NCBI GenBank assembly: GCA_963827655.1
Contig: CAWHCF010000007.1
Location: 29,376-93,375 of the forward strand
From: an uncultured Acidobacteriota bacterium
GTDB lineage: Bacteria > Acidobacteriota > UBA6911
Direction: 5' to 3'
Length of the DNA stretch: 64,000 nt
Shown here: positions 37,107 to 52,878 of the stretch, one piece after another
Layout: every line of letters begins with the position of its first letter
Numbering within the stretch: position 1 is the first letter of the stretch
Program-made: the position numbers and the translations under genes
The notes under the pieces: generated by a model
Told to the model about the DNA's origin: nothing
Database searches by the model: none
What the model saw: the letters and a program-made list of their open reading frames with translations, nothing else

Positions 37107-37311
37107 GCCAACTTGAATTTTTTTTGACCGCAACTTAGAATCGGCACAATTGACCAAAGAAAGTGAGGACGCTTAACACACCCGTCGCGCGGTGGCGGTG
37201 TTAGTCTGGATTGACCATGTCATGCAGGTGAGGGAGACGGAAAGGTAGGTCTTGATTTGCTTTCATCTCTCTCCGCAGCCTGACCATCCGGGCTTCCGGA
37301 CAGAGGCAGCG

Positions 37312-37875
37312 ATGTCCTCCCAGGCAAGCATCACCAAACTGCTCAAGCAGTGGCGCAACGGCGATCAAGAAGCCTTTAATGAATTGTTGCCGCAGGTCTA
37401 TGGTGAGCTGCGGCGTCTGGCCAATTATTACCTGCGCCAGGAGCGGCCAGGTCACACACTGCCAAGCAGTGCCTTAGTTCATGAGGCCTACCTGCGTCTG
37501 GTAGATGAAAAAGGGGTGGATTGGCAAAACCGGGCGCACTTCTTCGGCATCGCCGCCGTGCGGATGCGCCACATTCTGGTAGAGCACGCCAGAAGCCGGC
37601 AAGCAGCTAAGCGAGATGGAGGCAGCTATAGGCTGTTGCTCGGTGAGGCGGTTCGACCGGCTGAAAGACCCGACGTTAACCTGCTTGCGCTAGATGAGGC
37701 GCTCCAGAGGTTGGAGGCGTTGGACCCGCAGAAGGTGCGCATTGCGGAGTTGCGGTATTTTGGCGGGTTGACGATTGAGGAAACGGCGGAAGCGCTAAAG
37801 ATTTCGCCAGCAACAGTCAAGCGCGATTGGAGTATGGCCAGGGCTTGGCTGCGCAGCGAGATCAGCAACACATAG
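37312..37875 (+). CDS. ECF sigma factor, Ser/Thr-kinase-associated (TIGR02999-like)
   Basis: ITKLL..WRNGD, HTL.SSALVHEAYLRL, WQNRAHFFGIAA and ELRYFGGLTIEE...VKRDWSMARAWL. Confidence 0.92.
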   Translation: MSSQASITKLLKQWRNGDQEAFNELLPQVYGELRRLANYYLRQERPGHTLPSSALVHEAYLRLVDEKGVDWQNRAHFFGIAAVRMRHILVEHARSRQAAKRDGGSYRLLLGEAVRPAERPDVNLLALDEALQRLEALDPQKVRIAELRYFGGLTIEETAEALKISPATVKRDWSMARAWLRSEISNT

Positions 37876-37877
37876 CG

Positions 37878-40800
37878 ATGACACCTGAACGCTGGAAAAA
37901 ACTGGAAGCCTTGTTCGAGGAGGCTGTGGAGCTGCAGGGGGAAGCGCGGGTGGCCTTGCTGGCGCAGGCCTGCGGCAGCGACGAGCTGTTGCGCGAGCAG
38001 GCTGAGAGATTGATCGCCGCTCATGAGAGAGAAGGCAGCTTCATGGACTCACCAATCTTTGCGGAAGCCGCGGAGCTCGCCAATCATGATCACCATGAAT
38101 CTCCGGTTGGACAGTGCATAGGCCCCTACCAGGTCATCAGCCAACTCGGTCAGGGTGGAATGGGAGAAGTCTACCTGGCTGAGGACACCCGGCTCGGGCG
38201 CAGGATCGCACTAAAAGTGCTTCCCGCTTCCTTCACCCAAAATTCGGATCCCGTGCGCCGCTTTGAGCGAGAGGCGCGCGCGGCCTCGGCTCTTAATCAC
38301 CCGAACATCCTCACCGTCTACGAAACCGGACAAGTGGACAACACCTACTTCATCGCCACCGAGTTCATTGACGGCAAAACGCTGCGGCAGCAGATGGCGG
38401 GCAAACCGATGTCAAGGGGCGAGATGCTGGATGTAGGCACTCAAGTTGCCAGTGCCCTGGCAGTGGCCCACGAGGCTGGGATTGTGCATCGGGATATCAA
38501 GCCGGAAAACATTATGGTGCGGCGCGATGGGTACGTCAAAGTCCTGGACTTTGGCCTGGCCAAACTCACTGAATCACCAGCGACGTCAATCGAGAGTCAG
38601 GCAGCCACAGCAGCTACGATTCAGCACAGAGACACGGATGCTAATGGGCACCACACACTACATGTCCCCGGAGCAAGCGCAGGGGAAAAAGGTGGATGGT
38701 CGCAGTGATATCTTCAGTTTAGGAGTTGTGCTTTATGAAATGGTGACAGGCAAAAGGCCATTCGACGGCGCCACGACGACAGACCTGATCGCGGCGATTC
38801 TCAAGACTGAGCCGCCGCCGTTGACAGATTGCTCGCTTGAGGCGCGGCCCGAGTTAGAGCGGGTCATCAGCAAAGCCCTACGCAAAGACCCCGAGCATCG
38901 CTACCAGGTCGTCGGGGACTTGCTCCGTGATCTCAAGGACCTGAAGCAAGAGCTGGAGTGGGAAGCTAAGCAGGCGCGCGTTCATCAGCGTGAGGCTTAT
39001 GCGGAAACGGCCGCCGTCACTCATCAACCGGTGAAAGAACTGATCCCGCAGGTTGACGTTGCTCGCCTGAGACACAAGCTCAGTTAAGAGCGCGACCTCA
39101 AGCGCTAAAGACTTAGCTAATTCCCTTGGGCCGCGCGCTCGCGCCGCGATTTTCCTACTCGGAGCCGCTATCGCTCTTTCCGCCTGGTTCGCCTCCTCCA
39201 ATCGCGCGCCAGTTATCACTGAGAAAGACACTTTGCTGCTGGCCGACTTCGTGAACACGACTGGCGACGCCGTCTTCGACGGCACACTCAAACAGGCGCT
39301 CGCGGTGCAATTGGAACAGACCCCCTTTCTTAATCTCTTCCCCGAGGAGCGGGTGCGCGAGATGCTGCAGTATATGGGACGCTCGCCGGATGAGCGGGTG
39401 ACGAAAGACGTCGCGCGCGAGATCTGCCGGCGGCAGGGAATAAAGGCCGTGATCGTCGGTTCGATCGCGAATCTCGGTCGCAACTATGCCATTACTCTGG
39501 AGACCACCACCGCCCAAACCGGCGAAGTAATGGCCCGGTGGCAGGTCGAAGCCGAAGGTAAAGAACAGGTGCTGCGGGCGCTGGGAAAGGCGGCCACCGA
39601 GTTACGCGAGAAGCTGGGCGAGTCGCTTGGTTCGATCCAGAAATTCGACGCGCCGCTGGAACAGGCCACGACCTCATCGCTGGAAGCACTCAGAGCTCAC
39701 TCCCTGGGACTTGAGGTGGGAAAACCACAGGGGAACACTGATTGAGGCGATTCCATTCTTCAATCGTGCGATTGAACTGGATCACAATTTTGCCCTTGCC
39801 TACGCACTATCTGGCAGCAACGTATAACAACACCAGTCAGCCGGGGCTGGCGGCGGAATACGCCGAGAAGAGCATTTGGGCTACGGGACCGAGCTAGTGA
39901 ACTCGAGAAGCTCCATATTTCTGCTTTCTACTATAGAAACGTAGCAGGGGAACTCGATAAGGCGCTTGCAGTAACCGAGTTGTTCAACCAAACCTACCCG
40001 CGTTATCCCAATGCGCATTATCTGCTTGGTAATTGTTACCGGGACACTGGTCAGTACGAAAGAGCCCTCGAACCCTACCGCGAGGCCAGCCGCCTTGATC
40101 CGAATTGGTGGCAACCCTATCGAAACCTGGGGTTGGCATTGATGCGTCTTAATCGTTTCGACGAGGCCCAACAGGTGATCGAGCGAGCCTGGCACAGAAG
40201 TTAGACGGCACCGGCTACCACACGCAGCTCTATCAAATCGCTTTTGTCCGCGGAGATCAAGCCGCCCTGAAGGCGCAGCGTGACTGGTCCGGCGGAAAAT
40301 CGGAGGAGTATCAATTACTCGATTTTCAAGCTCAGGCGGTGGCCTATGCTGGACAGCATCGCCAGTCGCGCGAACTTTTTGAGCGCGCCGCCGCGCTGGC
40401 TGAGGCGCGCAATCTGAAAGAACCCGCGGCTAGGATTTCAGTCGAGAATGCGCTTACAAAGCGCGCTCTTCGGTTTTTGCCTGCAGGCCAAAGAAGACGC
40501 TGCCGGAGATTTGGGCGCTGTCGCCGAGAGAGTTCGCGGTTGGTCTCCCTGTGCAGCCGAAGGCAGCCCTGGCTTTGGCCCTGTGCGGCAATGTCGGCCA
40601 GGCGCAGTCGCTCGCCAACGATATCGCGTTGAAGTATCCCCAGAGTACCCTTAGCCACGCGGTCTGGCTGCCGATGATCCGCGCCGCCGTCGAAATCCGG
40701 CGCGGCAATCCTGACCAAGCTATTCAATTGTTGCAGCCGGCCAGCCAGTATGAAGCCGTGGGGCAATTCTGGCCCAATTTCCTGCGCGGCCAAGCTTACT

Positions 40801-41307: not shown

Positions 41308-41566
41308 TCAAGTCGTGGACGCGGCGCTTGAAGATCTCCGGACCACGCTGAAGATCACCGCGGCGCCGCGAATCATGGCGGTCCATCGCTACCAACGCGC
41401 CATTCCGCAGCCCACCCTGGGTTACGAGGCGCGCTTAGAGCGCATCGACCAGGAGCTCGGAAAAATTCCGGGAATCTATCTTGCGGGAAACTACCTGCGG
41501 GGCGTTTCAATCCCAGACTCAGTGAAGCAGGCCGGCGAAGTAGCGAATAGAATCAGTAGGCAGTAG
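41308..41566 (+). pseudogene. Duplicated 3' fragment of hemG
   Basis: Encodes VDAALEDLRTTLKI...ANRISRQ*; no 5' part. Confidence 0.9.
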
Positions 41567-41677
41567 GCCGAGGATCGCGTCGGACGCTGAATCAATTCGC
41601 CTGCGTCCGGCACCTCGCCGGGCGTGCTATCATTGTTTTTTCTACCGACTGCCTAATGCTTACTGCCTGCCGCTTGC
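41554..41677. repeat. 7-mer tandem/inverted repeat (CAGTAGG / CCTACTG-like)
   Basis: CAGTAGGCAGTAGGC...ACTGCCTAATGCTTACTGCCTGCCGC. Confidence 0.6.
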
Positions 41678-41678
41678 C

Positions 41679-42332
41679 ATGTTCGTCGGACACTACGGAG
41701 TAAGCTTCGCGGTAAAGAGCGCGGATAAAACCATTCCGCTCTGGGTACTCTTCATTGCCGTGCAACTCGTGGACGTCTTCTGGGGCATCTTTGTCTTGAC
41801 TGGAGTAGAGGAAGTCCGGATCGTACCAGGCATTACTGCCTCGAACCCTCTGGACCTCTACTACATGCCGTACACACACGCTCTTTTGTCCGCGCTTCTG
41901 TGGTCTCTTGCCGCCGGCATCGCGTACAAGGTCCTTCGGCGCCCACAGCAGGGCATCAGAGCGCCGATGCTTGTCGCTCTCGCCGTCTTCTCACATTGGA
42001 TACTCGATCTCATCGTGCACCGCCCGGATCTCCCGCTCTACGCCAATACCGTCAAGGTGGGGCTGGGACTCTGGAACTATCGAGCGGCCGCATTCGTCCT
42101 CGAAGCAGGGTTCCTCTTCGGCGGCATGCTGCTTTACTTCAACCGGACAACGCCGCTCTCGAAAACCGGGACCTATGGGTTGGTCGTCTTTGGCGTTGCG
42201 ATGCTCGTACTCCAGGCCCAGGTGTTCTTCGGGTCGCCGCCGCCGTCTCCGATTGCCGCCGCCCTCACTGCTCTTCTCTGCTATCTGGCCTTTGCCTGGA
42301 TCAGCCGGCTGCTCGAAACGAAACGCCGCTGA
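41679..42332 (+). CDS. Membrane-bound metal-dependent hydrolase-like protein
   Basis: MFVGH, QLVDVFW, PYTHAL and SHWILDLIVHRPDLP; multiple TM segments. Confidence 0.8.
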   Translation: MFVGHYGVSFAVKSADKTIPLWVLFIAVQLVDVFWGIFVLTGVEEVRIVPGITASNPLDLYYMPYTHALLSALLWSLAAGIAYKVLRRPQQGIRAPMLVALAVFSHWILDLIVHRPDLPLYANTVKVGLGLWNYRAAAFVLEAGFLFGGMLLYFNRTTPLSKTGTYGLVVFGVAMLVLQAQVFFGSPPPSPIAAALTALLCYLAFAWISRLLETKRR

Positions 42333-42556
42333 TCTTTGAGTCCGCAGCGATGCGTCGCGGTCCACCTCTTAACGCTGCCTTCCTTTTCGTGAGCTAATCC
42401 TTCCACAGCGTGCGCAGCCATCTGTGCGCGCGGATGCCGAGCGCCTCACGACTCTGGCAAGAACCCAGTGAGCGCTCAGTCCTCCAGCGAAGCGAAAATT
42501 CCTGCCTTATAGCAATCCTCCAGGTAAAATGGCAGCCGCCGGCGTGGCTGTTAACC

Positions 42557-42588
42557 AGGGCCGAAGGCCCGGCAGTGAATAGACCCGC
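42557..42588 (+). repeat. IR arm of the GCCGAAGGCCCG family; partner at 45579-45610 (-)
   Basis: AGGGCCGAAGGCCCGGCAGTGAATAGACCCGC vs AGGCGCCGAAGGCCCGTCAGTGAGTAGCCCGC. Confidence 0.65.
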
Positions 42589-42800
42589 TAAGAGATTGTC
42601 TCAAAAACGTACCGATCCATGTGCGGACGGGCTATCAAGCCCGTCCGGCTTCCGAGGGGGACACATACTGAACTTGTTAGGCTAAGACGATACCGAGTAC
42701 GGGTTACTTGCGACGGGCCAACTTGGCCCGTCGCCACAGGGTGCTCTAAAGAATGGCTGAGCCACACTACCAGATGCGCTCTGGATCGGGTTACGACACG

Positions 42801-44891
42801 ATGGGGTATGACCTTCTTATCTGTGCAATGGCGTTTTGGCTCGCGGCCGTAACCGCGGCGAGTGCGGACGCGGACGATCCCTTCCTGTGGCTGGAAGAAG
42901 TGCATGGCGCGAAGGCGCTCGACTGGGTGAAGACCGAGAACGCGCGGTCTGCGGCGCGGCTCGAAGGCGACCCGCGCTATGAAACCTATCGCCGCGAGGC
43001 GCTGGCGATCTTCACGGCGAAGGATCGCATTTCACTGCCCGAATTTCGCGCCAAGGGCGTCGACAACATCTGGCAGGACGATGCGCATCCACACGGCGTG
43101 TGGCGGCACGCGACGCTCGAGTCCTATCGCGCGGGCAAGCCGGAATGGGAGACGCTAATCGATCTTGACGCGCTGTCGAAGGCCGAGGGGCGCAACTGGT
43201 TCTTGAAAACGGTCGAGTGTCTGCCGCCGGAAGACCGCTATTGCCTCTTGTATATGTCGGACGGTGGCGGGGATGCGGTCGAAATCCGGGAGTTCGACGC
43301 GGTGACCAGGTCGTTCGTCAATGGTGGGTTCAGGCTCGATCGCGCGAAGCAGAACGTCGAGTGGATCGACCACAATAAGCTCCTCGTCGCGCGCCCATGG
43401 ACGCCGGAGGAGGCAACGACATCGGGCTACGCTTTCACGCTGAAGGTGATCGAGCGCGGCCGTCCGCTCACGCAGGCGAAGGAAGTGTTCCGTGGCGAGG
43501 CGAAGGATGCGTTCGTCGTGCCCCGCGTCCTGCGGGATGCGGACGGTCATGTGAGGGCAACAATCGCCGAACGGCGGATCGGATTCTTCCAGGCCGAATA
43601 CTACTTGATCGACAACGGCAAGCCCCGAAAGTTGTCGCTGCCTCAGCGCGCGAGCCTGCAAGCATTGGTTGAAGGACAGTTGATTGTCAGGATGCAGGAA
43701 GCTTGGGCCGGATTCGAGCCGGGCGCCCTCTTGGCATTGGACCTTGCCGCGGTCGCCAAAGACCCCGCGACCTGCAATGAAGCGGCGCAGCTCATCACGC
43801 ATCCCGGGCCGAAACAGACCATCGATGCGGTGACTGTCACGCGCGATCGGGTGATCGTTCAGCTGCTCGACGAGGTGAAAGGCGCGGTCGAGATTTTCGC
43901 GCGCAAGCGCGGCAAGTGGGTGGCGACGCGACTCGATCTGCCGAAGGGTTCCTCGCTCGTCGTGCGGGCAGCGCAGAAGTCGGGCGCGGTGATGTTCGTC
44001 ACATCTGAAAGCTTCCTTCAGCCGACCAGGCTGTGGTGGGGGGACGCAGCGACAGGAGAGACAGGCAAGATCGCGGTTCTGCCGGCGCGGTTCAAGGCGT
44101 CGACGCATGTAGTCGAGCAAAGCTGGGCGACGTCGCGCGATGGCACAAAAATACCTTACTTCCTCGTGCATCCTAAGCAGATGAAGGCAAACGGCTCGAC
44201 GCCGACCCTGTTGTTCGGTTACGGAGGCTTTCAACTGTCGAAGCCTCCGGTGTATCTGCCTGAGATGGGCAAGCTGTGGCTCGAGCGCGGGGGTGCATAC
44301 GTGATTGCGAACATTCGCGGCGGCGGCGAGTTCGGGCCTGCGTGGCATCAGTCAGCGCTGCGCGATCACCGCCAGCGCGCCTTCGATGATTTCGCGGCCG
44401 TCGCGGAAGACCTCATCAAGCGCAAGGTGACGAGCCCTCGGCGGCTCGGCATCTATGGCCGATCGAATGGCGGCGTGTTGACGACCGTCTCGATGACGCA
44501 GCGACCCGACCTGTTCAATGCGATCGTGGTTGAAAGCCCGCTGGTCGACATGCTGCGCTATCACAAGCTCTCGGCTGGCGCCTCGTGGGTTGCGGAGTAC
44601 GGCAATCCGGACGTCGCCGGCGACCGCTCGTTCATCGCGGCCTATTCCGCCTATCAGAAGGTGAAAGAGGGCGAGAAGTATCCCGAACCCTACATCACGA
44701 CGAACACCGAGGACGATCGTGTTCACCCGGGGCACGCGCGCAAGTTCGCAGCGCGGCTCAAGGCGGCAGGGGCGCCTTATCTCTACTACGAGAATACGTT
44801 TGGCGGCCATGCAAACGACGCGGATCCGGAACTCAACGCCAAGCGCTGGGCGCGGCACTATGTATATCTGGCGCAGAAGTTGATGGACTAG
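42801..44891 (+). CDS. Prolyl oligopeptidase (S9A), secreted
   Basis: DPFLWLEE, GYGGF, ANIRGGGEFG, GRSNGG (Ser), DDRVHP (Asp) and GGH (His); start approximate. Confidence 0.93.
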   Translation: MGYDLLICAMAFWLAAVTAASADADDPFLWLEEVHGAKALDWVKTENARSAARLEGDPRYETYRREALAIFTAKDRISLPEFRAKGVDNIWQDDAHPHGVWRHATLESYRAGKPEWETLIDLDALSKAEGRNWFLKTVECLPPEDRYCLLYMSDGGGDAVEIREFDAVTRSFVNGGFRLDRAKQNVEWIDHNKLLVARPWTPEEATTSGYAFTLKVIERGRPLTQAKEVFRGEAKDAFVVPRVLRDADGHVRATIAERRIGFFQAEYYLIDNGKPRKLSLPQRASLQALVEGQLIVRMQEAWAGFEPGALLALDLAAVAKDPATCNEAAQLITHPGPKQTIDAVTVTRDRVIVQLLDEVKGAVEIFARKRGKWVATRLDLPKGSSLVVRAAQKSGAVMFVTSESFLQPTRLWWGDAATGETGKIAVLPARFKASTHVVEQSWATSRDGTKIPYFLVHPKQMKANGSTPTLLFGYGGFQLSKPPVYLPEMGKLWLERGGAYVIANIRGGGEFGPAWHQSALRDHRQRAFDDFAAVAEDLIKRKVTSPRRLGIYGRSNGGVLTTVSMTQRPDLFNAIVVESPLVDMLRYHKLSAGASWVAEYGNPDVAGDRSFIAAYSAYQKVKEGEKYPEPYITTNTEDDRVHPGHARKFAARLKAAGAPYLYYENTFGGHANDADPELNAKRWARHYVYLAQKLMD

Positions 44892-44958
44892 CGTCCGCAG
44901 AGGCTCGGCAGCAGTAAGAGACCATGAGAACTGTCAGCGCTTCCTCGTCGCAGGATCG

Positions 44959-45426
44959 ATGCCGGATATGAAACACATGTCACCCGAGAGCCGACTCGCC
45001 GATTTCATCGCCCGGTACCCGCCCGAGATCCGCGTTTTGGCCCAGGCCGCGCTCACGAAAATGCGGGCGCGTCTACCGGGCGCCGTCGAGATGGTGTACG
45101 ACAACTACAATGCGCTGGTCGTCGGTTTCGGCCCCACGGAGCGCCCGTCGGATGCGATCTTCTCGATCGCCCTTTACCCGCGCTGGGTAAACCTGTTCTT
45201 CCTGCAGGGGGCAAACCTTCCCGATCCCAAGAAGCTCCTGCAGGGCGACGGCAAGAAGGTCCGCCGCATCCTCCTCGAAAACGCCGCGACCCTGGACCAG
45301 CCGGCGGTCCGCGCGTTGATCGAACACGCGCTCAAATCCGCTGCCAGGCCGCTGGATGGGAAGGCCCCGGGCCGGCTCATCATCAAATCCATTTCTGCCA
45401 AGCGGCGCCCACGACGTCCCGCATGA
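44959..45426 (+). CDS. DUF1801-like protein
   Basis: E.VYDNYNALVVGFGPTERPSDAIFS, LPDPKKLLQGDGKKVR. Confidence 0.72.
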   Translation: MPDMKHMSPESRLADFIARYPPEIRVLAQAALTKMRARLPGAVEMVYDNYNALVVGFGPTERPSDAIFSIALYPRWVNLFFLQGANLPDPKKLLQGDGKKVRRILLENAATLDQPAVRALIEHALKSAARPLDGKAPGRLIIKSISAKRRPRRPA

Positions 45427-45911
45427 TGCGAAACTTTCGGAAACAGCAGGATGCGCCTTCCAGTCCCCCGCCCTCATAAGCTGTGAAAGAATTGGGTCTG
45501 TGGCGCGGGTCCATCAAGCCAGAGGGCTGCCGGGCAATCGAGAGCCGTTCGCCTGAATTGTTTCACAGCTTCTGACGGGCGGGCTACTCACTGACGGGCC
45601 TTCGGCGCCTCGGCAGAGCATACCGAACCGCACTCTACGCGCTGCTCCCAGATACGTTAACCGTAACAGGCTCAATGAGCCACGTCCGCACTCAGGCAAG
45701 CACTGACACTCAGCTGCAAAGCTTGCCGCGTCGTGCAACTCGATAGCAAACTCTGCGAAGCTAGATTCGTTCATCTGCGTACTAAGACCGATACGTTTGC
45801 CGTCCGATCGTCACAATCATCGAGAGGTGAACAGTCGACGGTAGATCTGTTGGAAGGTGGACTTGACCTTCAACACATGGGGAGCGACGTGAGTTTAATC
45901 GTCGTAAGAAC

Positions 45912-47585
45912 ATGACTATTTTCATCAGTTACTCGCGGCTCGACAGCGAATTCGTCGACCGGCTGATTCATGAACTGGAAGAGCGCGGGATTGATGCCTG
46001 GGTCGACCGAAAGGACAGCCGCAGAGGCACGGACTGGCGAGCATCGACCAGCCGGGCCATGCGCCAGTGCCAGGCGGTAGTGGTGGTGCTCTCGCCACGT
46101 TTTGCCGCGTCGGATAACGCCGCGAAAGAGCTATCGATAGCCGACCAATACAAACGCCCGATAATTCCTATCATGGAGGATACCGAAGAAAGGTTCTCGG
46201 ACGCCGTAGATGAAGTTGTGCAGGCACTGCACGAGTTGCCGCCGCCTCACCCGCCCGCTGAACAGATCGAACCAATCCAGGCCGCGACTCAGGAAAAATC
46301 AAGAACAGAGTCCCTGCAACACAAGAGATACTGGCTCCTGGCAACCCTGATCGTCGCGATCGGCCTGGTAATTGGTCTCCAGCAAATGGGAGTCTTTGAT
46401 TGGCGATCTCCGCGCGCGGAGCCAGACCCTCGGACGGACAGAGCCCGGAAGCATGAAAGCCCATCGCCTCATAGCGCAGTCGCGAGCGCCGGGACCAATC
46501 CTGAAGCGAGGGCCGGGGCGGCAGCCTACAAGGTTCTCGCCGTCCAGGGCGGCTCTCACGGCTTCGACCAGCGTACCCTTCGGTTTTCCCTTCGAGTGAC
46601 GGTCAGCAAAGACAGTAACGGAGTGGGTGTCAATCGCGATTTCTTTCGCCTGGTCGCCGATGGATTGGCGCTGGCCCCCACGAAATACCCGGACGAGACT
46701 TTACCACCGCAGACTGCCAAGGATTTCGATGTGGAGTTCTTGATTCCAAAAGCAGCCACTCCGGTTTTCCTCCAGGTGGGCGACGTGAAGGGCGAGACGG
46801 TCGAAATCCCCGTCGACCCGCAAACGAAGAGCGCGGCTATTTTCATCAGCTACTCGCGGCGCGACAGCGAATTCGCCGACCGGCTCATTCACGAACTGGA
46901 AGCGCGCGGCTTCGATGCCTGGGTCGACCGTGAGGACATCCGCGGAGGCACCGCCTGGCGAGCATCGATCAGCCAGGCCATGCGCCAGTGCCAGGCCGTA
47001 ATCGTGGTGCTCTCGCCGCGTTCTGCCGCATCGGAGAATGTCGCCAAGGAGCTATCGCTAGCCGACCATCACAAACGCCCGATAATCCCCATAAGTCTTG
47101 AACCATGCGCGATCCCTGCCGCACTCGAGTTTCAACTGGCGGGGTTGCAGATCATCGAGTTTACTCAAGCGGGGTTCTCAGACTCGGTGGACAAAGTCGT
47201 ACAGGCGCTGCACACGCTCTCGCCTTATCCGCTTCCTGCTGGTTTCCAGGCTGGTGAACAAATCGAGCCAAACAAAACGACGACTCAGCAAAAATCGAGG
47301 GCCGGGTCCTTGCAACTACAGGGATACTGGCTCCTGGGAACCATACTCGTCGTGACCGGCCTGGTAATTGGTCTCAAGCAAATGGGAGCCCTTGAGCGGC
47401 GAGACCCTCGGACGGGCGGGGCGCAGGAACGTGCAAGTCCGGTGCCAGATAGCGCCGCAGAGCCTGCGGCGAGCCTGGGAACCCATCCCGAGGTAAGGGC
47501 CGGGGTTCAGGGGTATCAGGTTCTCGCCGTCCAAGCAAGCTCTCACGGCTCCGGCAAGCGAACCCTTCGTTTTCCATTCGAGTAA
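45912..47585 (+). CDS. TIR-TM-Ig-like-TIR-TM tandem fusion protein
   Basis: Two IFISYSR.D.EF TIR starts with SPR..AS.N.AKEL; two YWLL..L.V..GLVIGL TM helices; beta-rich domain between them. Confidence 0.87.
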   Translation: MTIFISYSRLDSEFVDRLIHELEERGIDAWVDRKDSRRGTDWRASTSRAMRQCQAVVVVLSPRFAASDNAAKELSIADQYKRPIIPIMEDTEERFSDAVDEVVQALHELPPPHPPAEQIEPIQAATQEKSRTESLQHKRYWLLATLIVAIGLVIGLQQMGVFDWRSPRAEPDPRTDRARKHESPSPHSAVASAGTNPEARAGAAAYKVLAVQGGSHGFDQRTLRFSLRVTVSKDSNGVGVNRDFFRLVADGLALAPTKYPDETLPPQTAKDFDVEFLIPKAATPVFLQVGDVKGETVEIPVDPQTKSAAIFISYSRRDSEFADRLIHELEARGFDAWVDREDIRGGTAWRASISQAMRQCQAVIVVLSPRSAASENVAKELSLADHHKRPIIPISLEPCAIPAALEFQLAGLQIIEFTQAGFSDSVDKVVQALHTLSPYPLPAGFQAGEQIEPNKTTTQQKSRAGSLQLQGYWLLGTILVVTGLVIGLKQMGALERRDPRTGGAQERASPVPDSAAEPAASLGTHPEVRAGVQGYQVLAVQASSHGSGKRTLRFPFE

Positions 47586-47656
47586 AGCAGTAGGCAGAAA
47601 GCAGGAGGCAGATGGCACTGGTACTGCGTACTGCTTACTGCTTTGCCCCTACTGCC
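47583..47656. repeat. 7-mer tandem/inverted repeat (GCAGTAG-like)
   Basis: AAAGCAGTAGGCAGAAAGCAGGAGGCAG...TACTGCGTACTGCTTACTGCTTT. Confidence 0.7.
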
Positions 47657-48158
47657 CCTCGAGCAGTTTGTTGATTTCCTCCCTTAGTTGCTGACCCATG
47701 CTCGAACTGTATCCAATCTGAACGTGCCGGACGACCCCTTCCTGATCGATCAAAACCTGCATCGGGATCGATCGGCTCTTATACGTACTCCCGACTGTGC
47801 CCTCGCTGTCCAACAGCACGAGGGACTTCAGGTTCCTGGAGTGAGCATAGCCTCGTACCGTTTCAGGAGATTCCTGCAGATTGATGGCAAGCAAGACCAT
47901 GTTCTGGGCATACTCTTGTTGGAGGCTTTCAAGCTGCGGCATGCTGAGGCGGCAAGGACCGCACCACGTCGCCCAAAAATCCAGCAACACGACCTTCCCT
48001 CGGAAATCTGACAGCGAAACCTGCCGGCCATCCATCGCGGGAAGACGAAACCCGGGCGCCTCCTGTCCCACCAGCACTCCGGTTTGGCGACCCGAACATT
48101 TCAGAAGCGCTATACCGAGCGCAAGGCAGCACACCACCCATATCAGCTTTCTATACAT
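47649..48158 (-). CDS. TlpA/ResA-family thiol:disulfide reductase
   Basis: LSDFRGKVVLLDFWATWCGPC, SIP..VLID..G; N-terminal anchor. Confidence 0.93.
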   Translation of the reverse strand: MYRKLIWVVCCLALGIALLKCSGRQTGVLVGQEAPGFRLPAMDGRQVSLSDFRGKVVLLDFWATWCGPCRLSMPQLESLQQEYAQNMVLLAINLQESPETVRGYAHSRNLKSLVLLDSEGTVGSTYKSRSIPMQVLIDQEGVVRHVQIGYSSSMGQQLREEINKLLEGQ

Positions 48159-48324
48159 CTCGTTGTTATCCTCCGAGATCGGCAACGTTCGCCGTCCGAC
48201 AGTCACAATTATCCACGAAGTGAGGAATCGACGGTAGACTTGTTTTGAAGCCGGCTCATTGGACAGGTCCGGCAGTGAGTACATGGGTCCGACGCCCACC
48301 GCGAAGACGCGAAGAGTCAAGGGT

Positions 48325-48353
48325 TTGCATTTCCCCTAAGGAAGCGATATAAG
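48325..48353 (+). promoter_or_regulatory. Putative sigma70 promoter of the third TIR unit
   Basis: TTGCAT-N17-TATAAG, ending 18 nt upstream of ATG 48372. Confidence 0.5.
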
Positions 48354-48371
48354 GTTGACCGTCGCACGAGC

Positions 48372-49347
48372 ATGACTATCTTCATCAGCTATTCCCGGCA
48401 CGATAGCGAATTTGTCGACCGGCTCATTCACGAACTGGAGAGGCGCGGGTACGACGCCTGGGTCGACCGCGAGGACATTCGTGGGGGCGCCGCCTGGGGA
48501 GCTTCTATCAGCCAGGCCATCCGCCAGTGCCAGGCGGTAATCGTGGTGCTCTCGCCACGTTCCGCCTCATCGGATAATGTCGCAAAGGAGCTATCGCTGG
48601 CCGACCATCACAAACGCCCGATAATACCCTTACGCTTTGAACCGGGGGCGATACCCGCCGCGCTCGAGTTTCAACTGGCCGGGCTGCAGATTATCGAGTT
48701 TAACCGGGCAGGCTTCTCAAACTCGGTGGATCAAGTGGTGCAGGCGTTGCGCGCGCTGCCGCATCCTGCTGCCCGTCGCCCATCCGAGCAGCAGATCGAA
48801 CCAATCCAGACGCGTCAAAAATCACCGACCGGGTCACTTCGACGTAAGGCATACTGGCTCCTTGCAAGTATCCTGGTCGTGGCCGGATTGATCGTCACTC
48901 TCCGGCAGATGAGAATCTTTGATCGTCGAGACCGTCGGGCGAACCATGGTGCAGCGGCATCCGGCTCCAGCGGCCGGTACAGCCGCGCCAGCCCCGAGTC
49001 GTGGCGCCAATCCCGAGGCAAAGGCCGGCGTGGCGTCGTATAAGGTTCTTGCCGTCAAACTTGACCCCTACAAACTGGACAAGCGCACCCTTCGCTTGTC
49101 GATTCGAGTGACGGTCGGCAGAGACACGCACGGCATCGGTGTCGGTCGGAATTACTTTCGCCTGCTGGTGGATGGATTGGCGCTGCCGCCCACAAAATAT
49201 CCCAGCGAGGCCTTGCGCCCCCAAACCTCCCAGGATTTCGAAGTGGAGTTCGTGATTCCGAAAACAGCAACTCAGCTCGCGCTTCAGGTGGGCGACGTCA
49301 GAGGCCAAACAGGAGAAATCCCTATCGATCTAAGCGCGGTGCGATGA
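48372..49347 (+). CDS. TIR-TM-Ig-like protein (third unit), one frameshift at ~48935-48950
   Basis: TIR and TM in 48372-49043; Ig-like C-terminus in the 48919-49347 frame, homologous to the middle domain of 45912-47585. Confidence 0.85.
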
Positions 49348-49439
49348 CCGGCAAGCCTGATGCTCGGGAAGTCGTGGGGGCGTGGACTTCGCGCCTTCGC
49401 GGTTAGCGCGTCAAACCATACTCTTCATGGAGGAGCTTG

Positions 49440-49838: not shown

Positions 49839-49956
49839 ACTCGCCGGAAAAACGAATACCACCAGGACGCAAAGACACGAAGGTTTAACAACCCAAACTG
49901 GATAGTGATAGAGTGAGCACAGCCCGATCTTGCCCAAGTGTGAAAGAGGTGCCGCG

Positions 49957-52878
49957 ATGAGAAATTCCTCTCTGGCCGTCAAGGTAATGGTTGCCGTTGC
50001 CGCCGTCTCTTTGGGAGCGTTCAGCATCACCCGGAATCCTCAGCGGGATGCGCCGCCCGCTCCGGGGAAGTCAGTCCCGATGGCACAGGGTGGTCTTGCC
50101 CTGCAGATCCAGCTGGGCTTGAAGGACGCCAAGTCAACGGACTGGGATGGCGAGGTTAAAGTCTCGCCGGGCCAGATGGCGTTGAGAGATGCGCAGCTGC
50201 AGAAAACCGACCGAATCACGGGCAACTCCTGGCGACTGAGCTCGCGTACCGTGGGCCAGGGTCCGAATCAGCGGACCGAGCCGGTCGTCCTCTATGCCAC
50301 CACCGAGGCGCCGCCAACGGCCAAGGTCGACGTAGCTACGAAGCAGGGCAACTTCTCCTTCACCCTGGCTGAGCTCAAGTTTGGCGCCCCTTTAACCTTT
50401 CTCGGCGGCGCGGCCGCGGTCGAGCGAGTCCCCATTACCCAGCAGCTGACCAGCGCCCCCACCGAGGACGATTTCGCCGCCTGCGCCGCTGCTCCCGACG
50501 GAAGCGTCTGGTGTGCGTACGTTGGCTACCTTCGCGGCAGCCCGCTAGTCGCGGAAGACTTCAACAAGGGCAAGTTCGATTCGCTGATTACGCGCAACCA
50601 TGGCGACCAGGTCCGGCTGATGAAGTTCGACGGCAAGCAGTGGACGGCGCCGATCGATGTGACGCCCGCAGGCCTGGACGTCTGGCGTCCTACGGTCGCA
50701 ATCGATGGAAATGGCGCGGTCTGGGTAATCTGGTCTCAGGCCACAAATGGCAACTGGGACCTGCACGCGCGCAGTTACGATACCAAGGCCAATCGCTGGT
50801 CGAACGACCAGCGCGTCACGTCAGAGCCAGGCGCGGACATCCACAGTGTTGCGACCACGACCCGCTCCGGCGCCGTCTGGGTAGCCTGGCAAAGCTGGGG
50901 AAACGGCGACTTCGCCATCAAGGCTCAGAGACTGGGCGGCAGCGGTAAATCGACACCGCTTACGCGCGACTTCCCCCGGGGCAATGAATGGCAGCCGAGC
51001 ATCGCGGCGGATTCCAAGGGGAAGGTTTACGTCGCCTTCGATACCTATGCCAAAGGCAACTATGACGTCTACGTCTGGGCGCTGGATGAAAACGCGTCGA
51101 ACGCTTCCGGGGAGATCATCCCGGTTGCAACCTCCGCGCGTTTCGAGGCACGTCCGACGATGGCGGTCGATGGGCAGGATCGCGTCTGGATTGCTTACGA
51201 AGATGCCGAGCCCAACTGGGGGAAAGACTACGGGACGCGCTGGGAAGGAAAGACCGGCGCGCCGTTTTACCTGAATCGCAATGTCGCCGTCCGCTGTCTC
51301 GAAGGAGGCAAATTGCTCCAGACGAAAGCCGAAATCAAGTCGGAGCTGATCGACACGACCTATCCCCCGAGCGAGCGCCAGCGGCTCAGCTACCCGCGGA
51401 TAAGCACGGACGGCGCGGGAGCACTGTGGCTGCTCTTCCGCAGGCATGCGCTCAAGACGGGCGCAACCGAACGGTGGGTGTCGTATGCGACTTACTACAG
51501 CGGAGACGCCTGGTCCGGGCCAATCCTTCTCCCCAGTTCCGAAAATCTGCTCGACAATCGTCCCGCGCTGGTACCGATGAAAGGAAACGGATTGCTGGCC
51601 GTCTACTCCAGTGACGGCCGGACAGGCGGTACAAACACCGCCGTGAAAAACAATCTCTATGGCGCGCTGTTCAGCACCGAAGGGAGCCCGAGGAATCCGG
51701 TCCTGGTCAGCGTCCGGCCGGAAGGAGACGGCAGCACCGCTGAAGCCGTGCACGCCGACGAAACCGAAGACGTCAACCGTATTCGCGCCTACCGAGTCTC
51801 AGTCGGCGGCAAGACCTATCAGCCCCTGCGAGGCGAGTTTCATCGCCACACCGAGATCTCCAGTCACCGCGACCAGGACGGTCCTTTCGAGGAGATCTGG
51901 CGCTATGGTCTCGACGTGGCTCGGATGGACTGGATCGGCCCCGGCGATCACGACAATGGCGTGGGACGCGAATATACCTGGTGGCTCACGCAGAAACAGG
52001 TGGACATCTACCATCATGCGCCGGTCTTCATGCCGATGTTCACCTACGAGCGCAGCGTCGTCTTTCCAAGCGGTCATCGGAATGTCATGTTCGCGCGGCG
52101 CGGCATCCGCCCGCTGCCGCGCATGGGAACGCCGCAGCAACAGGAGGTGCTCTACGGCTCGCCTCAAGCCGGGTCGCCGGACATAAAGAACCTGTACGCC
52201 TATCTCAAGCACTTCGACGGCATCTGCTCCTCGCACACGTCGGCAACCAATATGGGAACGGACTGGCGCGACAATGATCCGGCCGTAGAACCGGTGGTTG
52301 AGATTTACCAGGGGCACCGGCAGAACTACGAAGAACCCAAGGCCCCCAAGGCCGCGAAAGATGCGGAGGACAGCATCGGTGGTTTTCAACCGGAGGGGTA
52401 CGTCTGGAACGCCTTCCTCAAAGGATACAAGCTGGGGTTCCAGGTCAGCAGCGACCACGTCAGCACCCACATCAGTTACGGTATTGTTTACGCCGAAAAG
52501 CCGACCCGGGACGCCATAGTGGATGCCTTCAAGAAACGCCACTCGTATGGAGCGAACGACAACATCATCCTGGACGTGCGCTGCGGCGACAAAATGATGG
52601 GGGACGAGTTCACGTCGAGGGCCGCTCCCAAGCTCGATATCCAGGCCATCGGAACGGCGCCCGTGGCGCGCATAGACATCGTGAGGCAGATCGATCGGTC
52701 GACGCCCGCCTATGTTTACGCGGTGGAACCGAAGAAGCCGAATGTCAAAATCAGCTGGACCGACAGCAAGGCGAAAGAGGGGGCTCTGAACATGTACTAC
52801 GTCCGGCTCATGCAGGAAGACGGCAAAATGGCGTGGGCCAGCCCGATGTGGATCAAGTATGAGCCCGCGTCGCGATGA
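49957..52878 (+). CDS. Secreted protein with propeller-like repeats and a C-terminal PHP-like (DUF3604-like) metallohydrolase domain
   Basis: Signal peptide; GEFHRHT, GDHD, GHRN, SSH, VEIYQG and SSDH metal-ligand motifs. Confidence 0.75.
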   Translation: MRNSSLAVKVMVAVAAVSLGAFSITRNPQRDAPPAPGKSVPMAQGGLALQIQLGLKDAKSTDWDGEVKVSPGQMALRDAQLQKTDRITGNSWRLSSRTVGQGPNQRTEPVVLYATTEAPPTAKVDVATKQGNFSFTLAELKFGAPLTFLGGAAAVERVPITQQLTSAPTEDDFAACAAAPDGSVWCAYVGYLRGSPLVAEDFNKGKFDSLITRNHGDQVRLMKFDGKQWTAPIDVTPAGLDVWRPTVAIDGNGAVWVIWSQATNGNWDLHARSYDTKANRWSNDQRVTSEPGADIHSVATTTRSGAVWVAWQSWGNGDFAIKAQRLGGSGKSTPLTRDFPRGNEWQPSIAADSKGKVYVAFDTYAKGNYDVYVWALDENASNASGEIIPVATSARFEARPTMAVDGQDRVWIAYEDAEPNWGKDYGTRWEGKTGAPFYLNRNVAVRCLEGGKLLQTKAEIKSELIDTTYPPSERQRLSYPRISTDGAGALWLLFRRHALKTGATERWVSYATYYSGDAWSGPILLPSSENLLDNRPALVPMKGNGLLAVYSSDGRTGGTNTAVKNNLYGALFSTEGSPRNPVLVSVRPEGDGSTAEAVHADETEDVNRIRAYRVSVGGKTYQPLRGEFHRHTEISSHRDQDGPFEEIWRYGLDVARMDWIGPGDHDNGVGREYTWWLTQKQVDIYHHAPVFMPMFTYERSVVFPSGHRNVMFARRGIRPLPRMGTPQQQEVLYGSPQAGSPDIKNLYAYLKHFDGICSSHTSATNMGTDWRDNDPAVEPVVEIYQGHRQNYEEPKAPKAAKDAEDSIGGFQPEGYVWNAFLKGYKLGFQVSSDHVSTHISYGIVYAEKPTRDAIVDAFKKRHSYGANDNIILDVRCGDKMMGDEFTSRAAPKLDIQAIGTAPVARIDIVRQIDRSTPAYVYAVEPKKPNVKISWTDSKAKEGALNMYYVRLMQEDGKMAWASPMWIKYEPASR

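What the first reader, a model, noticed from the sequence alone, without database searches (positions are those of the whole stretch)
45912..49347. Triplicated TIR-transmembrane-Ig-like unit: candidate receptor-like (Toll/IL-1R-style) bacterial TIR system
Seen: one unit (N-terminal TIR, one TM helix, Pro/Ala linker, ~100-aa beta-rich domain YKVLAV..RTLR.S.RVTV..FRL..DGLAL.PTKYP..DF.VEF.IPK) occurs three times. All three TIRs keep the Glu in S.N.AKEL, the position of the catalytic Glu in TIR NADases. Established: TIR domains are activated by oligomerisation, consume NAD+, and serve in bacterial anti-phage defence (e.g. Thoeris). Inference: a cytoplasmic TIR tethered to an extracytoplasmic DUF4352/Ig-like domain could sense a periplasmic ligand. 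The two complete ectodomains differ, which may reflect different specificities. I recognised no ThsA, CBASS or STAND partner nearby.
Basis: partly seen in the sequence, partly recalled or inferred. Interest (0 to 1): 0.8.

Follow-up and report, generated by a model that had tools for sequence, protein, structure and literature searches.

The report
Membrane TIR proteins with outside sensor domain
A soil acidobacterium carries three old tandem copies, two of them damaged or fused, of an unnamed membrane protein that joins an NAD-cleaving TIR domain inside the cell to a small beta-sandwich domain probably outside it, a layout like an animal immune receptor whose function is untested.

Summary
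The repeat is real, but it is not three clean genes. Units 1 and 2 form one 557-aa ORF (45912-47585). Unit 2 keeps only 23 residues of its beta domain. Unit 3 is split by one extra A at 48942/48943, which a syntenic relative and one bridging metagenome contig lack.

Each unit has a TIR_2 domain with the Glu that aligns to SARM1 E642, one hydrophobic helix, a disordered linker and a 10-strand beta-sandwich. The sandwich has no Pfam hit. It folds like YcdA and MPT63, and 17 of 102 profile relatives match DUF4352.

TIR-TM-beta(x1-3) recurs in 26 of 149 cluster representatives, all unnamed. Related TIR-TM proteins end in PASTA, TonB_C or FGE-sulfatase domains. Flank charges in 18 of 26 put the TIR inside. 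Both support a receptor-like topology, though the window's own subfamily is ambiguous.

Paralogues are old (dS 0.5-0.85) and constrained (dN/dS 0.18-0.32). Gene context is housekeeping, with no ThsA, CBASS or STAND partner.

Best reading: a clustering-activated membrane TIR NADase with an outside sensor. A defence role is plausible through Mpr (TM-linker-DUF4352) but unsupported by context.

The parts
45800..45911 (+). Upstream region of unit 1, homologous to the region upstream of unit 3, so the duplication included the 5' region
   Evidence: The alignment of the two upstream regions with L011 and L012 has many invariant columns and a 54-70 nt indel.
45912..46832 (+). Unit 1, first 307 codons of the 557-aa ORF. 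TIR about 45912-46286, with an approximately 20-aa deletion relative to units 2 and 3 and Glu codon 46128-46130. TM helix 46338-46394, disordered linker, beta-sandwich about 46521-46820.
   Evidence: The beta-domain model has pLDDT 88.6.
46833..47585 (+). Unit 2, fused in frame to unit 1 with no start codon. Complete TIR about 46833-47231 (Glu codon 47049-47051), TM helix 47331-47387, linker, 23-residue stub of the beta domain at 47514-47582, then a stop.
   Evidence: The junction is bridged without gaps by a 458-nt contig of an independent soil metagenome (X3 record 23). The same fusion occurs in P0001, P0002 and P0018.
47649..48161 (-). TlpA/redoxin-like gene lying between units 2 and 3. The listed ORF runs to 48320; the start at about 48161, before a signal-like segment, was judged by eye. 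Not shown to be functionally linked.
   Evidence: Pfam AhpC-TSA 2.4e-24 and Redoxin 4.9e-24. The same position is conserved in L011.
48200..48371 (+). Upstream region of unit 3, a divergent intergenic region shared with the redoxin gene and homologous to the unit 1 upstream region
48372..48941 (+). Unit 3, 5' part. Complete TIR (Glu codon 48588-48590), TM helix 48846-48902, Arg-rich juxtamembrane stretch.
48942..48943 (+). Frameshift site in unit 3. One extra A (AA where relatives have A) splits the gene.
   Evidence: X2 contig record 20 (48360-49000) lacks one base at 48942. L011 encodes a contiguous 324-aa protein, and P0003-P0006 are contiguous.
48943..49347 (+). Unit 3, 3' part in the other frame. 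Linker and complete beta-sandwich (about 49021-49344), stop at 49345-49347.

Best explanation
The locus holds three old tandem paralogues of an unnamed family of single-pass membrane proteins. Each has four parts in order:
- an N-terminal cytoplasmic SARM1-type TIR domain;
- one transmembrane helix;
- a disordered Pro/Ala linker of about 40-60 residues;
- a C-terminal, most likely extracytoplasmic, DUF4352-like beta-sandwich.

Proposed mechanism: the outer domain, alone or on binding a ligand at the envelope, clusters the protein in the membrane. Clustering brings the TIR domains together, their NAD+-cleaving sites become active, and NAD+ is depleted or an ADP-ribose-derived signal is made, which changes growth or kills the cell.

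Shown here: the domain composition and order, the folds, the conserved NADase Glu, purifying selection on all three TIRs, recurrence of the architecture, and the damaged state of the locus (units 1 and 2 fused, unit 2 truncated, unit 3 frameshifted).

Inferred: the topology, the enzyme activity, activation by clustering, and the biological trigger.
For: TIR domain:
- TIR_2 scores above the Pfam cut-off.
- In the full model the TIR reaches pLDDT about 80. Foldseek's best hits are the SARM1 TIR and SPARTA TIR-APAZ, at E about 1e-6.
- A profile of 12 TIR-TM-beta-beta proteins hits the SARM1 TIR at 6e-16. Its invariant Glu column falls on residue 642 of the full-length SARM1 chain.
- The window's Glu sits in the same column via P0019.
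- A Glu between betaC and betaD is reported as critical for TIR NADase activity (PMC7075850, passage read).

Beta domain:
- The model has pLDDT 88.6 and pTM 0.80.
- Best PDB matches are 4r4g YcdA (TM 0.72) and 1lmi MPT63 (TM 0.63).
- The ESM Atlas points to DUF4352/DUF1942/DUF5067 clusters at 0.92.

Recurrence:
- The beta profile finds 314 representatives at E<=1e-3.
- Of the 102 given to Pfam, 26 carry TIR_2, 17 DUF4352, 3 Pkinase, 1 CHAT and 1 EAD1.
- In my own tally of 149 representatives, 26 are TIR-TM-beta(x1-3) and 60 are TM-beta.

Topology:
- In 26 TIR-TM-beta representatives K+R averages 3.42 on the TIR side and 2.12 on the beta side. The TIR side is more positive in 18 and the beta side in 4.
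- Related TIR-TM proteins, one of them in this genome, end in PASTA, TonB_C or FGE-sulfatase domains.

Selection:
- Paralogue TIRs have dS 0.51-0.79 and dN/dS 0.18-0.32. The two beta domains have dS 0.85 and dN/dS 0.31.
- The sister-strain protein P0018 differs from the window's fusion at 10 residues, 9 of them in linkers (counted by eye).

Precedent:
- Mpr of M. smegmatis is TM-linker-DUF4352 with a predicted periplasmic DUF4352 that is needed for phage D29 resistance in vivo (PMC9262609, passages).
- That DUF4352 promotes oligomerisation, and phage escape maps to a minor tail protein (PMC12596739, abstract).
Against: - No Pfam or PADLOC model hits the window's beta domains.
- In the window's own subfamily the stretch after the helix is as positive as the stretch before it (unit 3: 4 K/R before; 6 K/R and 2 D/E after). 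The positive-inside rule therefore does not decide topology here.
- In the 557-aa fusion, a TIR1-in/beta-out topology would place the well-conserved TIR2 outside the cell, where NAD+ is not expected.
- None of the three units is a clean stand-alone gene in this assembly.
- Neighbouring genes are housekeeping: S9 peptidase, DUF1801, redoxin, RidA, GNAT, amine oxidase.
- The family was not found in 60 relatives of the same family or class at E<=1e-10.
- Only 1 of 400 other Acidobacteriota genomes and 0 of 301 Chloroflexota genomes gave a full-length TIR-TM-beta match.
- No enzyme, topology or phenotype data exist.
Confidence: 0.55

Rival explanations
1. The protein is an envelope or environment sensor unrelated to phage. 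The TIR-TM-ectodomain proteins of Acidobacteriota would then be ordinary outside-in signalling receptors, comparable to PASTA kinases, that use a TIR instead of a kinase as output. The window's copies would be lineage-specific members.
For: - Context is housekeeping in the window and at the one full-length relative, G382 (class A PBP, peptidase, amylase, PdxA).
- The same genome has further SARM1-like TIR-TM proteins, one of them with PASTA.
- The same beta domain also follows Ser/Thr kinase domains in 3 of 102 relatives.
- G000 has 15 TIR matches at E<=1e-3.
Against: - A CHAT and an EAD1 partner (1 each of 102) point to conflict systems.
- The only studied TM-DUF4352 protein found in my searches is a phage-resistance factor (PMC9262609, PMC12596739).
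- Single-gene TIR systems, one with a TM segment, defend E. coli (PMC11350192, passages).
- Narrow, patchy distribution and frequent breakage are more typical of conflict genes.
Confidence: 0.25
2. The locus is a decaying remnant. In this strain it no longer has a function, and what remains is a fused, truncated and frameshifted gene array on its way to loss.
For: - Unit 2 lacks its ectodomain.
- Unit 3 is frameshifted here. Judged from the protein P0010, it is frameshifted at a different place in a sister strain.
- P0001 and P0002 end at yet other points after TIR2.
- P0011 and P0012 end inside the beta domain.
Against: - All three TIRs and both beta domains show dN/dS 0.18-0.32 over dS 0.5-0.85.
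- The 557-aa fusion has the same length in a sister strain, with changes almost confined to linkers.
- The fusion is kept at about 78% identity in P0001 and P0002.
- The single extra A of unit 3 may be an assembly error, because the only contig that bridges the site lacks it.
- Contigs of an RNA library lie on unit 3, which is weak evidence because DNA can be present in such libraries.
Confidence: 0.12
3. The helix is only a tether. The beta domain stays in the cytoplasm, or the helix merely holds the TIR at the membrane in an inactive state. Activation would come from release or from cytoplasmic events rather than from an outside ligand.
For: - The stretch immediately after the helix in the window's subfamily is Arg-rich.
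- This reading would remove the topology paradox of the TIR1-TM-beta-TIR2 fusion.
- An amoeba TIR NADase is kept harmless by an N-terminal membrane helix (PMC13142454, passages).
Against: - Family-wide charge bias puts the TIR inside and the beta domain outside (18 against 4 of 26).
- 60 of 149 relatives are TM/signal-anchor plus beta domain with almost no cytoplasmic part.
- Sister architectures carry PASTA and TonB_C.
- The structural neighbours YcdA (putative lipoprotein) and MPT63 (secreted) are extracytoplasmic by their PDB titles.
Confidence: 0.08

Closest known systems
SARM1-type TIR NADase domains (SARM1; bacterial TIR effectors such as SPARTA TIR-APAZ)
   Same: They share the fold and give a sequence-profile match (6e-16 for the wider family). 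The Glu aligns with SARM1 residue 642.
   Different: - The window's subfamily lacks the insert between betaC and alphaC that the wider family shares with SARM1.
- Unit 1 also lacks about 20 residues around alphaD/betaE.
- There are no ARM/SAM or APAZ partner domains. Instead there is a TM helix and an outer beta-sandwich.
- Activity is untested.
Mpr (multicopy phage resistance) of Mycobacterium smegmatis: short N-terminal region, TM, flexible linker, DUF4352
   Same: Both have a TM helix flanked by charged residues, a flexible linker and a C-terminal DUF4352-type sandwich predicted to lie outside the membrane. In Mpr the DUF4352 is required in vivo and promotes oligomerisation (PMC9262609 passages; PMC12596739 abstract).
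   Different: The cytoplasmic part of Mpr is a short segment with reported nuclease activity, not a TIR. The window's beta domain does not reach the Pfam DUF4352 model. Homology to Mpr itself was not tested.
Thoeris ThsB and single-gene TIR defence systems of E. coli
   Same: They have a TIR with the conserved Glu. PADLOC ThsB models and Pfam ThsB_TIR match the TIR part weakly. One E. coli single-gene system combines TIR and TM (PMC11350192, passage).
   Different: No ThsA or other partner lies nearby. The matches cover only the TIR. No defence-island context was found.
IL-1 receptor / Toll-like receptor family
   Same: They share the logic of one membrane pass, a TIR inside and a beta-sandwich or other sensor outside, with activation by TIR clustering.
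   Different: - The order is inverted: here the TIR is N-terminal and the sensor C-terminal.
- The TIR is of the enzymatic SARM1 type, not the adaptor type.
- The ectodomain is not an immunoglobulin-superfamily domain by any test here.
- This is an analogy, not family membership.
PASTA-type Ser/Thr kinases (kinase-TM-extracellular sensor)
   Same: They have the same modular plan. Relatives of this TIR carry PASTA after the TM, and relatives of this beta domain follow kinase domains (3 of 102).
   Different: The output domain is a TIR, not a kinase.

Membership tests
TIR domain (Pfam TIR_2, PF13676) | Profile match above the curated cut-off | tested here: met
   177.2 bits in the 557-aa ORF (2 stretches) and 99.6 bits in the 223-aa ORF, against a cut-off of 28.
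TIR domain (Pfam TIR_2, PF13676) | Flavodoxin-like alpha/beta fold superposable on solved TIRs | tested here: met
   The model of orthologue P0004 has strands and helices in TIR order. Foldseek gives probability 1.00 to the SARM1 TIR and SPARTA TIR-APAZ. Unit 1 lacks about 20 residues of this fold.
NADase-type (SARM1-like) TIR | Conserved Glu between betaC and betaD at the position of SARM1 E642 | tested here: met
   The Glu is invariant in 12 wider-family proteins and aligns to chain residue 642 of SARM1. It is present in all three window TIRs. Its importance is taken from PMC7075850 (passage). That E642 is the catalytic residue is recalled, not taken from a call.
NADase-type (SARM1-like) TIR | NAD+ cleavage on oligomerisation | not testable with these tools
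   This needs an enzyme assay.
DUF4352 (Pfam PF11611) | Profile match above the curated cut-off | tested here: not met
   No hit at E<=10 for either window beta domain or for P0009.
DUF4352 (Pfam PF11611) | Same fold as solved members, and linkage by sequence profile | tested here: inconclusive
   - Best PDB matches are 4r4g YcdA (E 1.4e-3, TM 0.72) and 1lmi MPT63.
- 17 of 102 profile relatives match DUF4352 at E<=1e-3, best 7.6e-11.
- Only 1 of 10 TM-beta relatives matched, and that below the cut-off.
- That YcdA is a Pfam DUF4352 member is recalled, not tested.
Thoeris | ThsB-type TIR together with a ThsA (SIR2/Macro-SLOG) gene | tested here: not met
   ThsB models match only the TIR, and weakly. 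No such partner was found among the ORFs scanned between 33979 and 63370.
Mpr-like TM-linker-DUF4352 phage-resistance proteins | Single TM, flexible linker, C-terminal DUF4352-type domain | tested here: met
   Helix, disordered linker (pLDDT below 50 over residues 178-210) and sandwich.
Mpr-like TM-linker-DUF4352 phage-resistance proteins | Short N-terminal segment with nuclease activity; phage resistance | not tested
   The N-terminal part here is a TIR. No Mpr sequence was compared and no phenotype is available.
IL-1R/TLR receptors | N-terminal ectodomain, TM, C-terminal adaptor-type TIR | tested here: not met
   The order is the reverse and the TIR is SARM1-like.

The most novel reading that the evidence does not exclude
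These proteins are bacterial outside-in TIR immune receptors. The DUF4352-like ectodomain detects a phage tail or the envelope damage of adsorption or injection at the cell surface, as escape mutants suggest for Mpr. This clusters the protein and switches on a cytoplasmic SARM1-type NADase before phage DNA is expressed. That would be a bacterial counterpart of IL-1R/TLR logic built from an enzymatic TIR. TIR-TM-PASTA, TIR-TM-TonB_C and TIR-TM-FGE-sulfatase would be sister receptors for other surface cues.
Probability: 0.2. Interest if true: 0.85.

Novelty: new variant of a known kind. Interest (0 to 1): 0.55.

Why it matters
Known bacterial TIR systems sense infection inside the cell, or through partner proteins. 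A TIR NADase wired through the membrane to an outside sensor domain would be a different way of triggering TIR signalling. It would also be a direct functional parallel to animal TIR receptors. The family is small enough to test, and intact orthologues of 323-324 aa exist. It also links two separately studied modules: the SARM1-type TIR and the TM-linker-DUF4352 module of Mpr. For this particular window the value is lower, because the copies are fused, truncated or frameshifted.

Tried and rejected
- **Beta-domain homodimer (complex prediction, 2 copies, alignment A4):** no verdict, score 0.00. It is not used either way.
- **Beta profile against PDB sequences:** only two chance-level hits, E 0.038 and 0.84.
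- **Pfam at E<=10 and PADLOC on the beta domain:** nothing usable. The one Pfam hit was DUF1869 at E 0.24.
- **Programmed frameshift in unit 3:** rejected. I saw no slippery heptamer at 48936-48948 by eye, and orthologues are contiguous.
- **Joint 45864->48343 in run X3 as a deletion variant with a single unit:** rejected. The side is only 37 letters, and the 13 extra letters resemble the L012-type upstream variant of unit 1, which is closer to the proximal upstream of unit 3.
- **Stretches of the window without laid contigs:** no inference drawn.
- **First attempt at the metagenome scan with alignment A1:** failed for lack of a conserved stretch. It was repeated with the 5-row alignment A2.
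- **Metagenome scan:** of 38 loci only L011-L013 are family members. The other 35 match the TIR part only, at 22-50% identity, within query residues 1-167.
- **Genome-collection scan:** 7 loci, none matching beyond query residue 148.
- **Earlier findings:** not open.
- **Supplementary files of PMC11350192 and PMC7075850:** not seen. Their lists of TIR architectures could already include this one.
Full report
**1. What is in the sequence**

The stated span holds three homologous modules.
- The direct-repeat scan gives a 300-nt family with copies at 45908, 46829 and 48368 (79-86% identity). It also gives further families covering the linker and the C-terminal domain.
- The ORF map differs from 'three units':
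  - One ORF of 557 aa (45912-47585) contains unit 1 and unit 2 in the same frame.
  - A redoxin-like gene lies on the minus strand (47649-48320; Pfam AhpC-TSA/Redoxin).
  - Unit 3 is split into a 223-aa ORF (48372-49043) and an overlapping 142-aa ORF in another frame (48919-49347).
- Pfam finds TIR_2 twice in the 557-aa ORF (2e-52) and once in the 223-aa ORF (2.3e-28). It finds nothing in the 142-aa ORF.

**2. State of the three units**

*Unit 1* (codons 1-307) has a TIR, a hydrophobic helix, a linker and a complete C-terminal domain. Its TIR lacks about 20 residues that units 2 and 3 have.

*Unit 2* follows without a stop or a start codon. It has a complete TIR, a second helix and a linker, then stops after 23 residues of the C-terminal domain.
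- The domain profile matches only positions 1-41 of 120 there.
- The fusion is not an assembly artefact of this genome:
  - The same in-frame junction is present in P0001 (493 aa), P0002 (482 aa) and P0018 (557 aa).
  - A 458-nt contig of an independent soil metagenome crosses the junction without gaps (run X3, record 23).
- The three relatives end at different points after TIR2.

*Unit 3* is broken by one base.
- The syntenic metagenome locus L011 (redoxin gene, unit 3, RidA, start of the 982-aa ORF) encodes a contiguous 324-aa protein.
- P0003-P0006 are also contiguous, at 323-367 aa.
- The only laid contig that crosses the site (run X2, record 20) lacks one base at 48942. No independent data confirm the window's extra A, so it may be a strain mutation or an assembly error.
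- A sister-strain protein (P0010, on a 285,623-bp contig that also holds a 557-aa fusion protein, P0018) reads through this site. Judged from the protein alone, it leaves the frame about 90 nt further on.

**3. The TIR**

- The model of the intact orthologue P0004 (5-row alignment, mean pLDDT 68.9) gives these segments:
  - a TIR with pLDDT about 80;
  - a helix at residues 157-177;
  - a disordered stretch at 178-210;
  - a beta domain at 213-316.
- Foldseek against the PDB puts the SARM1 TIR and SPARTA TIR-APAZ first, at E about 1e-6 and probability 1.00.
- A profile of 12 wider-family proteins (A7) hits the SARM1 TIR at 6e-16 over the whole domain. Its invariant Glu aligns to residue 642 of the full-length SARM1 chain, counted from the printed alignment.
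- The window's Glu is in the same column through P0019.
- A Glu between betaC and betaD is described as critical for NADase activity in bacterial, plant and SARM1 TIRs (PMC7075850, passage).
- That E642 is the catalytic residue of SARM1 is my recollection.

**4. The C-terminal domain**

- Modelled alone with a 10-row alignment, it is a confident 10-strand sandwich (pLDDT 88.6, pTM 0.80).
- Its best PDB matches are the putative lipoprotein YcdA of B. subtilis (4r4g, E 1.4e-3, TM 0.72) and the secreted MPT63 (1lmi, TM 0.63). No match reaches E<=1e-3.
- The ESM Atlas lists DUF4352/DUF1942/DUF5067 clusters at 0.90-0.92.
- Pfam does not hit the window's domains, even at E<=10.
- A four-row profile (A5) finds 314 cluster representatives at E<=1e-3, 78 of them at E<=1e-10.
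- I gave 102 of the 150 listed to Pfam. Of these, 26 carry TIR_2, 17 match DUF4352 (best 7.6e-11), 3 carry a protein kinase, 1 CHAT and 1 EAD1.
- The domain is best described as a divergent relative of DUF4352, not a member by Pfam's own criterion.

**5. The architecture recurs but has no name**

- I made a crude tally on 149 representatives, using an HMM of the window's TIR, an HMM of the beta domain and a Kyte-Doolittle helix scan:
  - 60 TM-beta;
  - 34 beta only;
  - 13 beta-beta;
  - 12 TM-beta-beta;
  - 26 with TIR-TM followed by one to three beta domains, the commonest form being TIR-TM-beta-beta of about 480-520 aa;
  - the remaining 4 were 2 TM-TM-beta, 1 TM-TM-beta-beta and 1 with no feature called.
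- In 7 of those 26, the scan also called a second 'TM' inside the TIR. I take that for a hydrophobic strand.
- Ten such clusters carry only the names 'hypothetical protein', 'TIR domain' or 'TIR domain-containing protein'.
- The window's one-domain subfamily is narrow:
  - 17 hits in the 5.8-billion-protein search, 6 of them near full length.
  - 7 hits with the beta region alone.
  - No match at E<=1e-10 in 60 relatives of the same family or class.
  - 3 of 38 metagenome loci are family members.
- With the wider profile, 17 of 401 Acidobacteriota genomes (G000 included) match at E<=1e-15. Only one genome other than G000 matches over the full length. None of 301 Chloroflexota genomes does.
- In G000 the beta domain occurs only at the three units.

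**6. Topology**

- In the window's subfamily both flanks of the helix are positive. Unit 3 has 4 K/R before it, and 6 K/R with 2 D/E after it. The positive-inside rule does not decide.
- Across the 26 TIR-TM-beta representatives the TIR side is more positive: 3.42 against 2.12 K+R on average, 18 cases against 4.
- Most relatives without a TIR are a short N-terminal tail, one helix and the beta domain.
- Proteins with the same SARM1-like TIR and a helix end in the following domains:
  - PASTA (G000 contig 32);
  - TonB_C (G293);
  - FGE-sulfatase (G187).
- I know PASTA and TonB_C as extracytoplasmic domains.
- Together this favours TIR inside and beta domain outside. No dedicated predictor could be run.

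**7. Selection and age**

- Nei-Gojobori estimates between the window's paralogues give dS 0.51-0.79 and dN/dS 0.18-0.32 for the TIRs. The two complete beta domains give dS 0.85 and dN/dS 0.31.
- The duplications are therefore old, and all parts, TIR2 included, have mostly evolved under constraint.
- Window against L011 has too few changes to be informative.
- P0018 differs from the window's fusion at 10 residues, 9 of them in linkers (by eye).

**8. Context**

- The ORFs scanned around the locus encode the following:
  - an amine-oxidase-type flavoprotein;
  - a PD40 protein;
  - an ECF sigma factor;
  - a Ser/Thr kinase;
  - an S9 peptidase;
  - DUF1801;
  - the redoxin;
  - RidA;
  - a 982-aa protein without Pfam hits;
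  - a GNAT;
  - a copper amine oxidase;
  - an aminotransferase;
  - a nitroreductase-like protein;
  - a large outer-membrane barrel.
- PADLOC hits only generic domains: the kinase, and RidA matching part of PD-T4-2_B.
- The one full-length relative sits among a class A PBP, a peptidase, an amylase and PdxA.
- There is no sign of a defence island in these two places. Two places are too few to exclude one.

**9. Literature**

- No paper in the searched library joins DUF4352 and a TIR in one protein. Subscription papers and supplements were not searchable.
- Mpr of M. smegmatis is the relevant precedent:
  - It has one helix flanked by charged residues, a low-complexity linker and a DUF4352 predicted to be periplasmic. 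[quoted passage not shown]
  - The DUF4352 promotes oligomerisation, and escape maps to a minor tail protein (PMC12596739, abstract).
- E. coli single-gene TIR systems, one with a TM segment, protect against phages (PMC11350192, passages).

**10. Reading**

The most likely reading is a clustering-activated membrane TIR NADase with an outside sensor (0.55).
- The trigger could be phage (novel case, 0.2) or another envelope cue (rival, 0.25).

Unexplained points:
- With TIR1 inside and the beta domain outside, the conserved TIR2 of the fusion would be outside the cell. The alternatives are:
  - TIR2 is made from an internal start. An in-frame GTG at 46785-46787 follows AGGTG at 46774-46778, seen by eye.
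  - TIR2 serves outside the cell as an interaction domain.
  - The topology is different from what I infer.
- Unit 3 is interrupted at two different linker positions in two sister strains.

Noticed in passing
L012:1670-1960; window about 42547-42582: A dispersed repeat of about 190 nt has more than 40 matches across G000 contigs (76-94% identity). In L012 it sits where the window has the S9 peptidase and DUF1801 genes. The window keeps a 36-nt identical piece at the same boundary.
   Followed up: partly
window 42753-45426 versus L012: The S9 peptidase and DUF1801 genes lie between the membrane-protein ORF (41679-42332) and unit 1 in the window. They are absent from the closely related metagenome contig L012, an insertion/deletion difference directly upstream of the TIR locus.
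   Followed up: partly
G000 contigs C32:69226-69996, C26:3713-4498, C41:223691-224164, C45:41021-41395, C10, C46: The same genome holds many further TIR proteins, with 15 matches at E<=1e-3. These include:
- SARM1-like TIR-TM proteins with PASTA or unknown C-terminal domains;
- a soluble TIR with a lipocalin-like tail;
- one protein with an N-terminal ectodomain, several helices and a C-terminal TIR.
   Followed up: partly
proteins P0030-P0032, P0039, P0046, P0047, P0051, P0056, P0062, P0066, P0068: A subfamily of TM-beta proteins, mostly about 200 aa, has a strongly conserved W-W-x-T-L-P-G motif before the helix and Q-x-G-x-F after it. The window's units also have Q-M-G/R-x-F after the helix, so helix plus beta domain may be one inherited module.
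   Followed up: no
window 46826-46845, 49328-49350 and 48368-48385: The end of unit 3 (…gcggtgcgATGAcc) and the start of the units (gcATGACtat) share ATGAC. The unit 1/unit 2 junction equals an overlapping stop/start arrangement minus 8 nt. This would explain how the in-frame fusion arose (by eye).
   Followed up: no
window 49930-52878: A 982-aa ORF downstream of RidA has a signal-like N-terminus and no Pfam or PADLOC hit. Its start is conserved in L011.
   Followed up: no
window 34705-35354 and 41308-42548: L012 positions 1-650 match one place in the window (94%) and positions 390-1631 match another (98%). The overlap at 390-650 means part of the flavoprotein-oxidase region is present twice about 6.6 kb apart.
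   Followed up: no
window 37252-38708: An ECF sigma factor gene is followed, with overlap, by a Ser/Thr kinase ORF. The kinase's catalytic domain gives strong but generic PADLOC PD-T4-6 matches.
   Followed up: no
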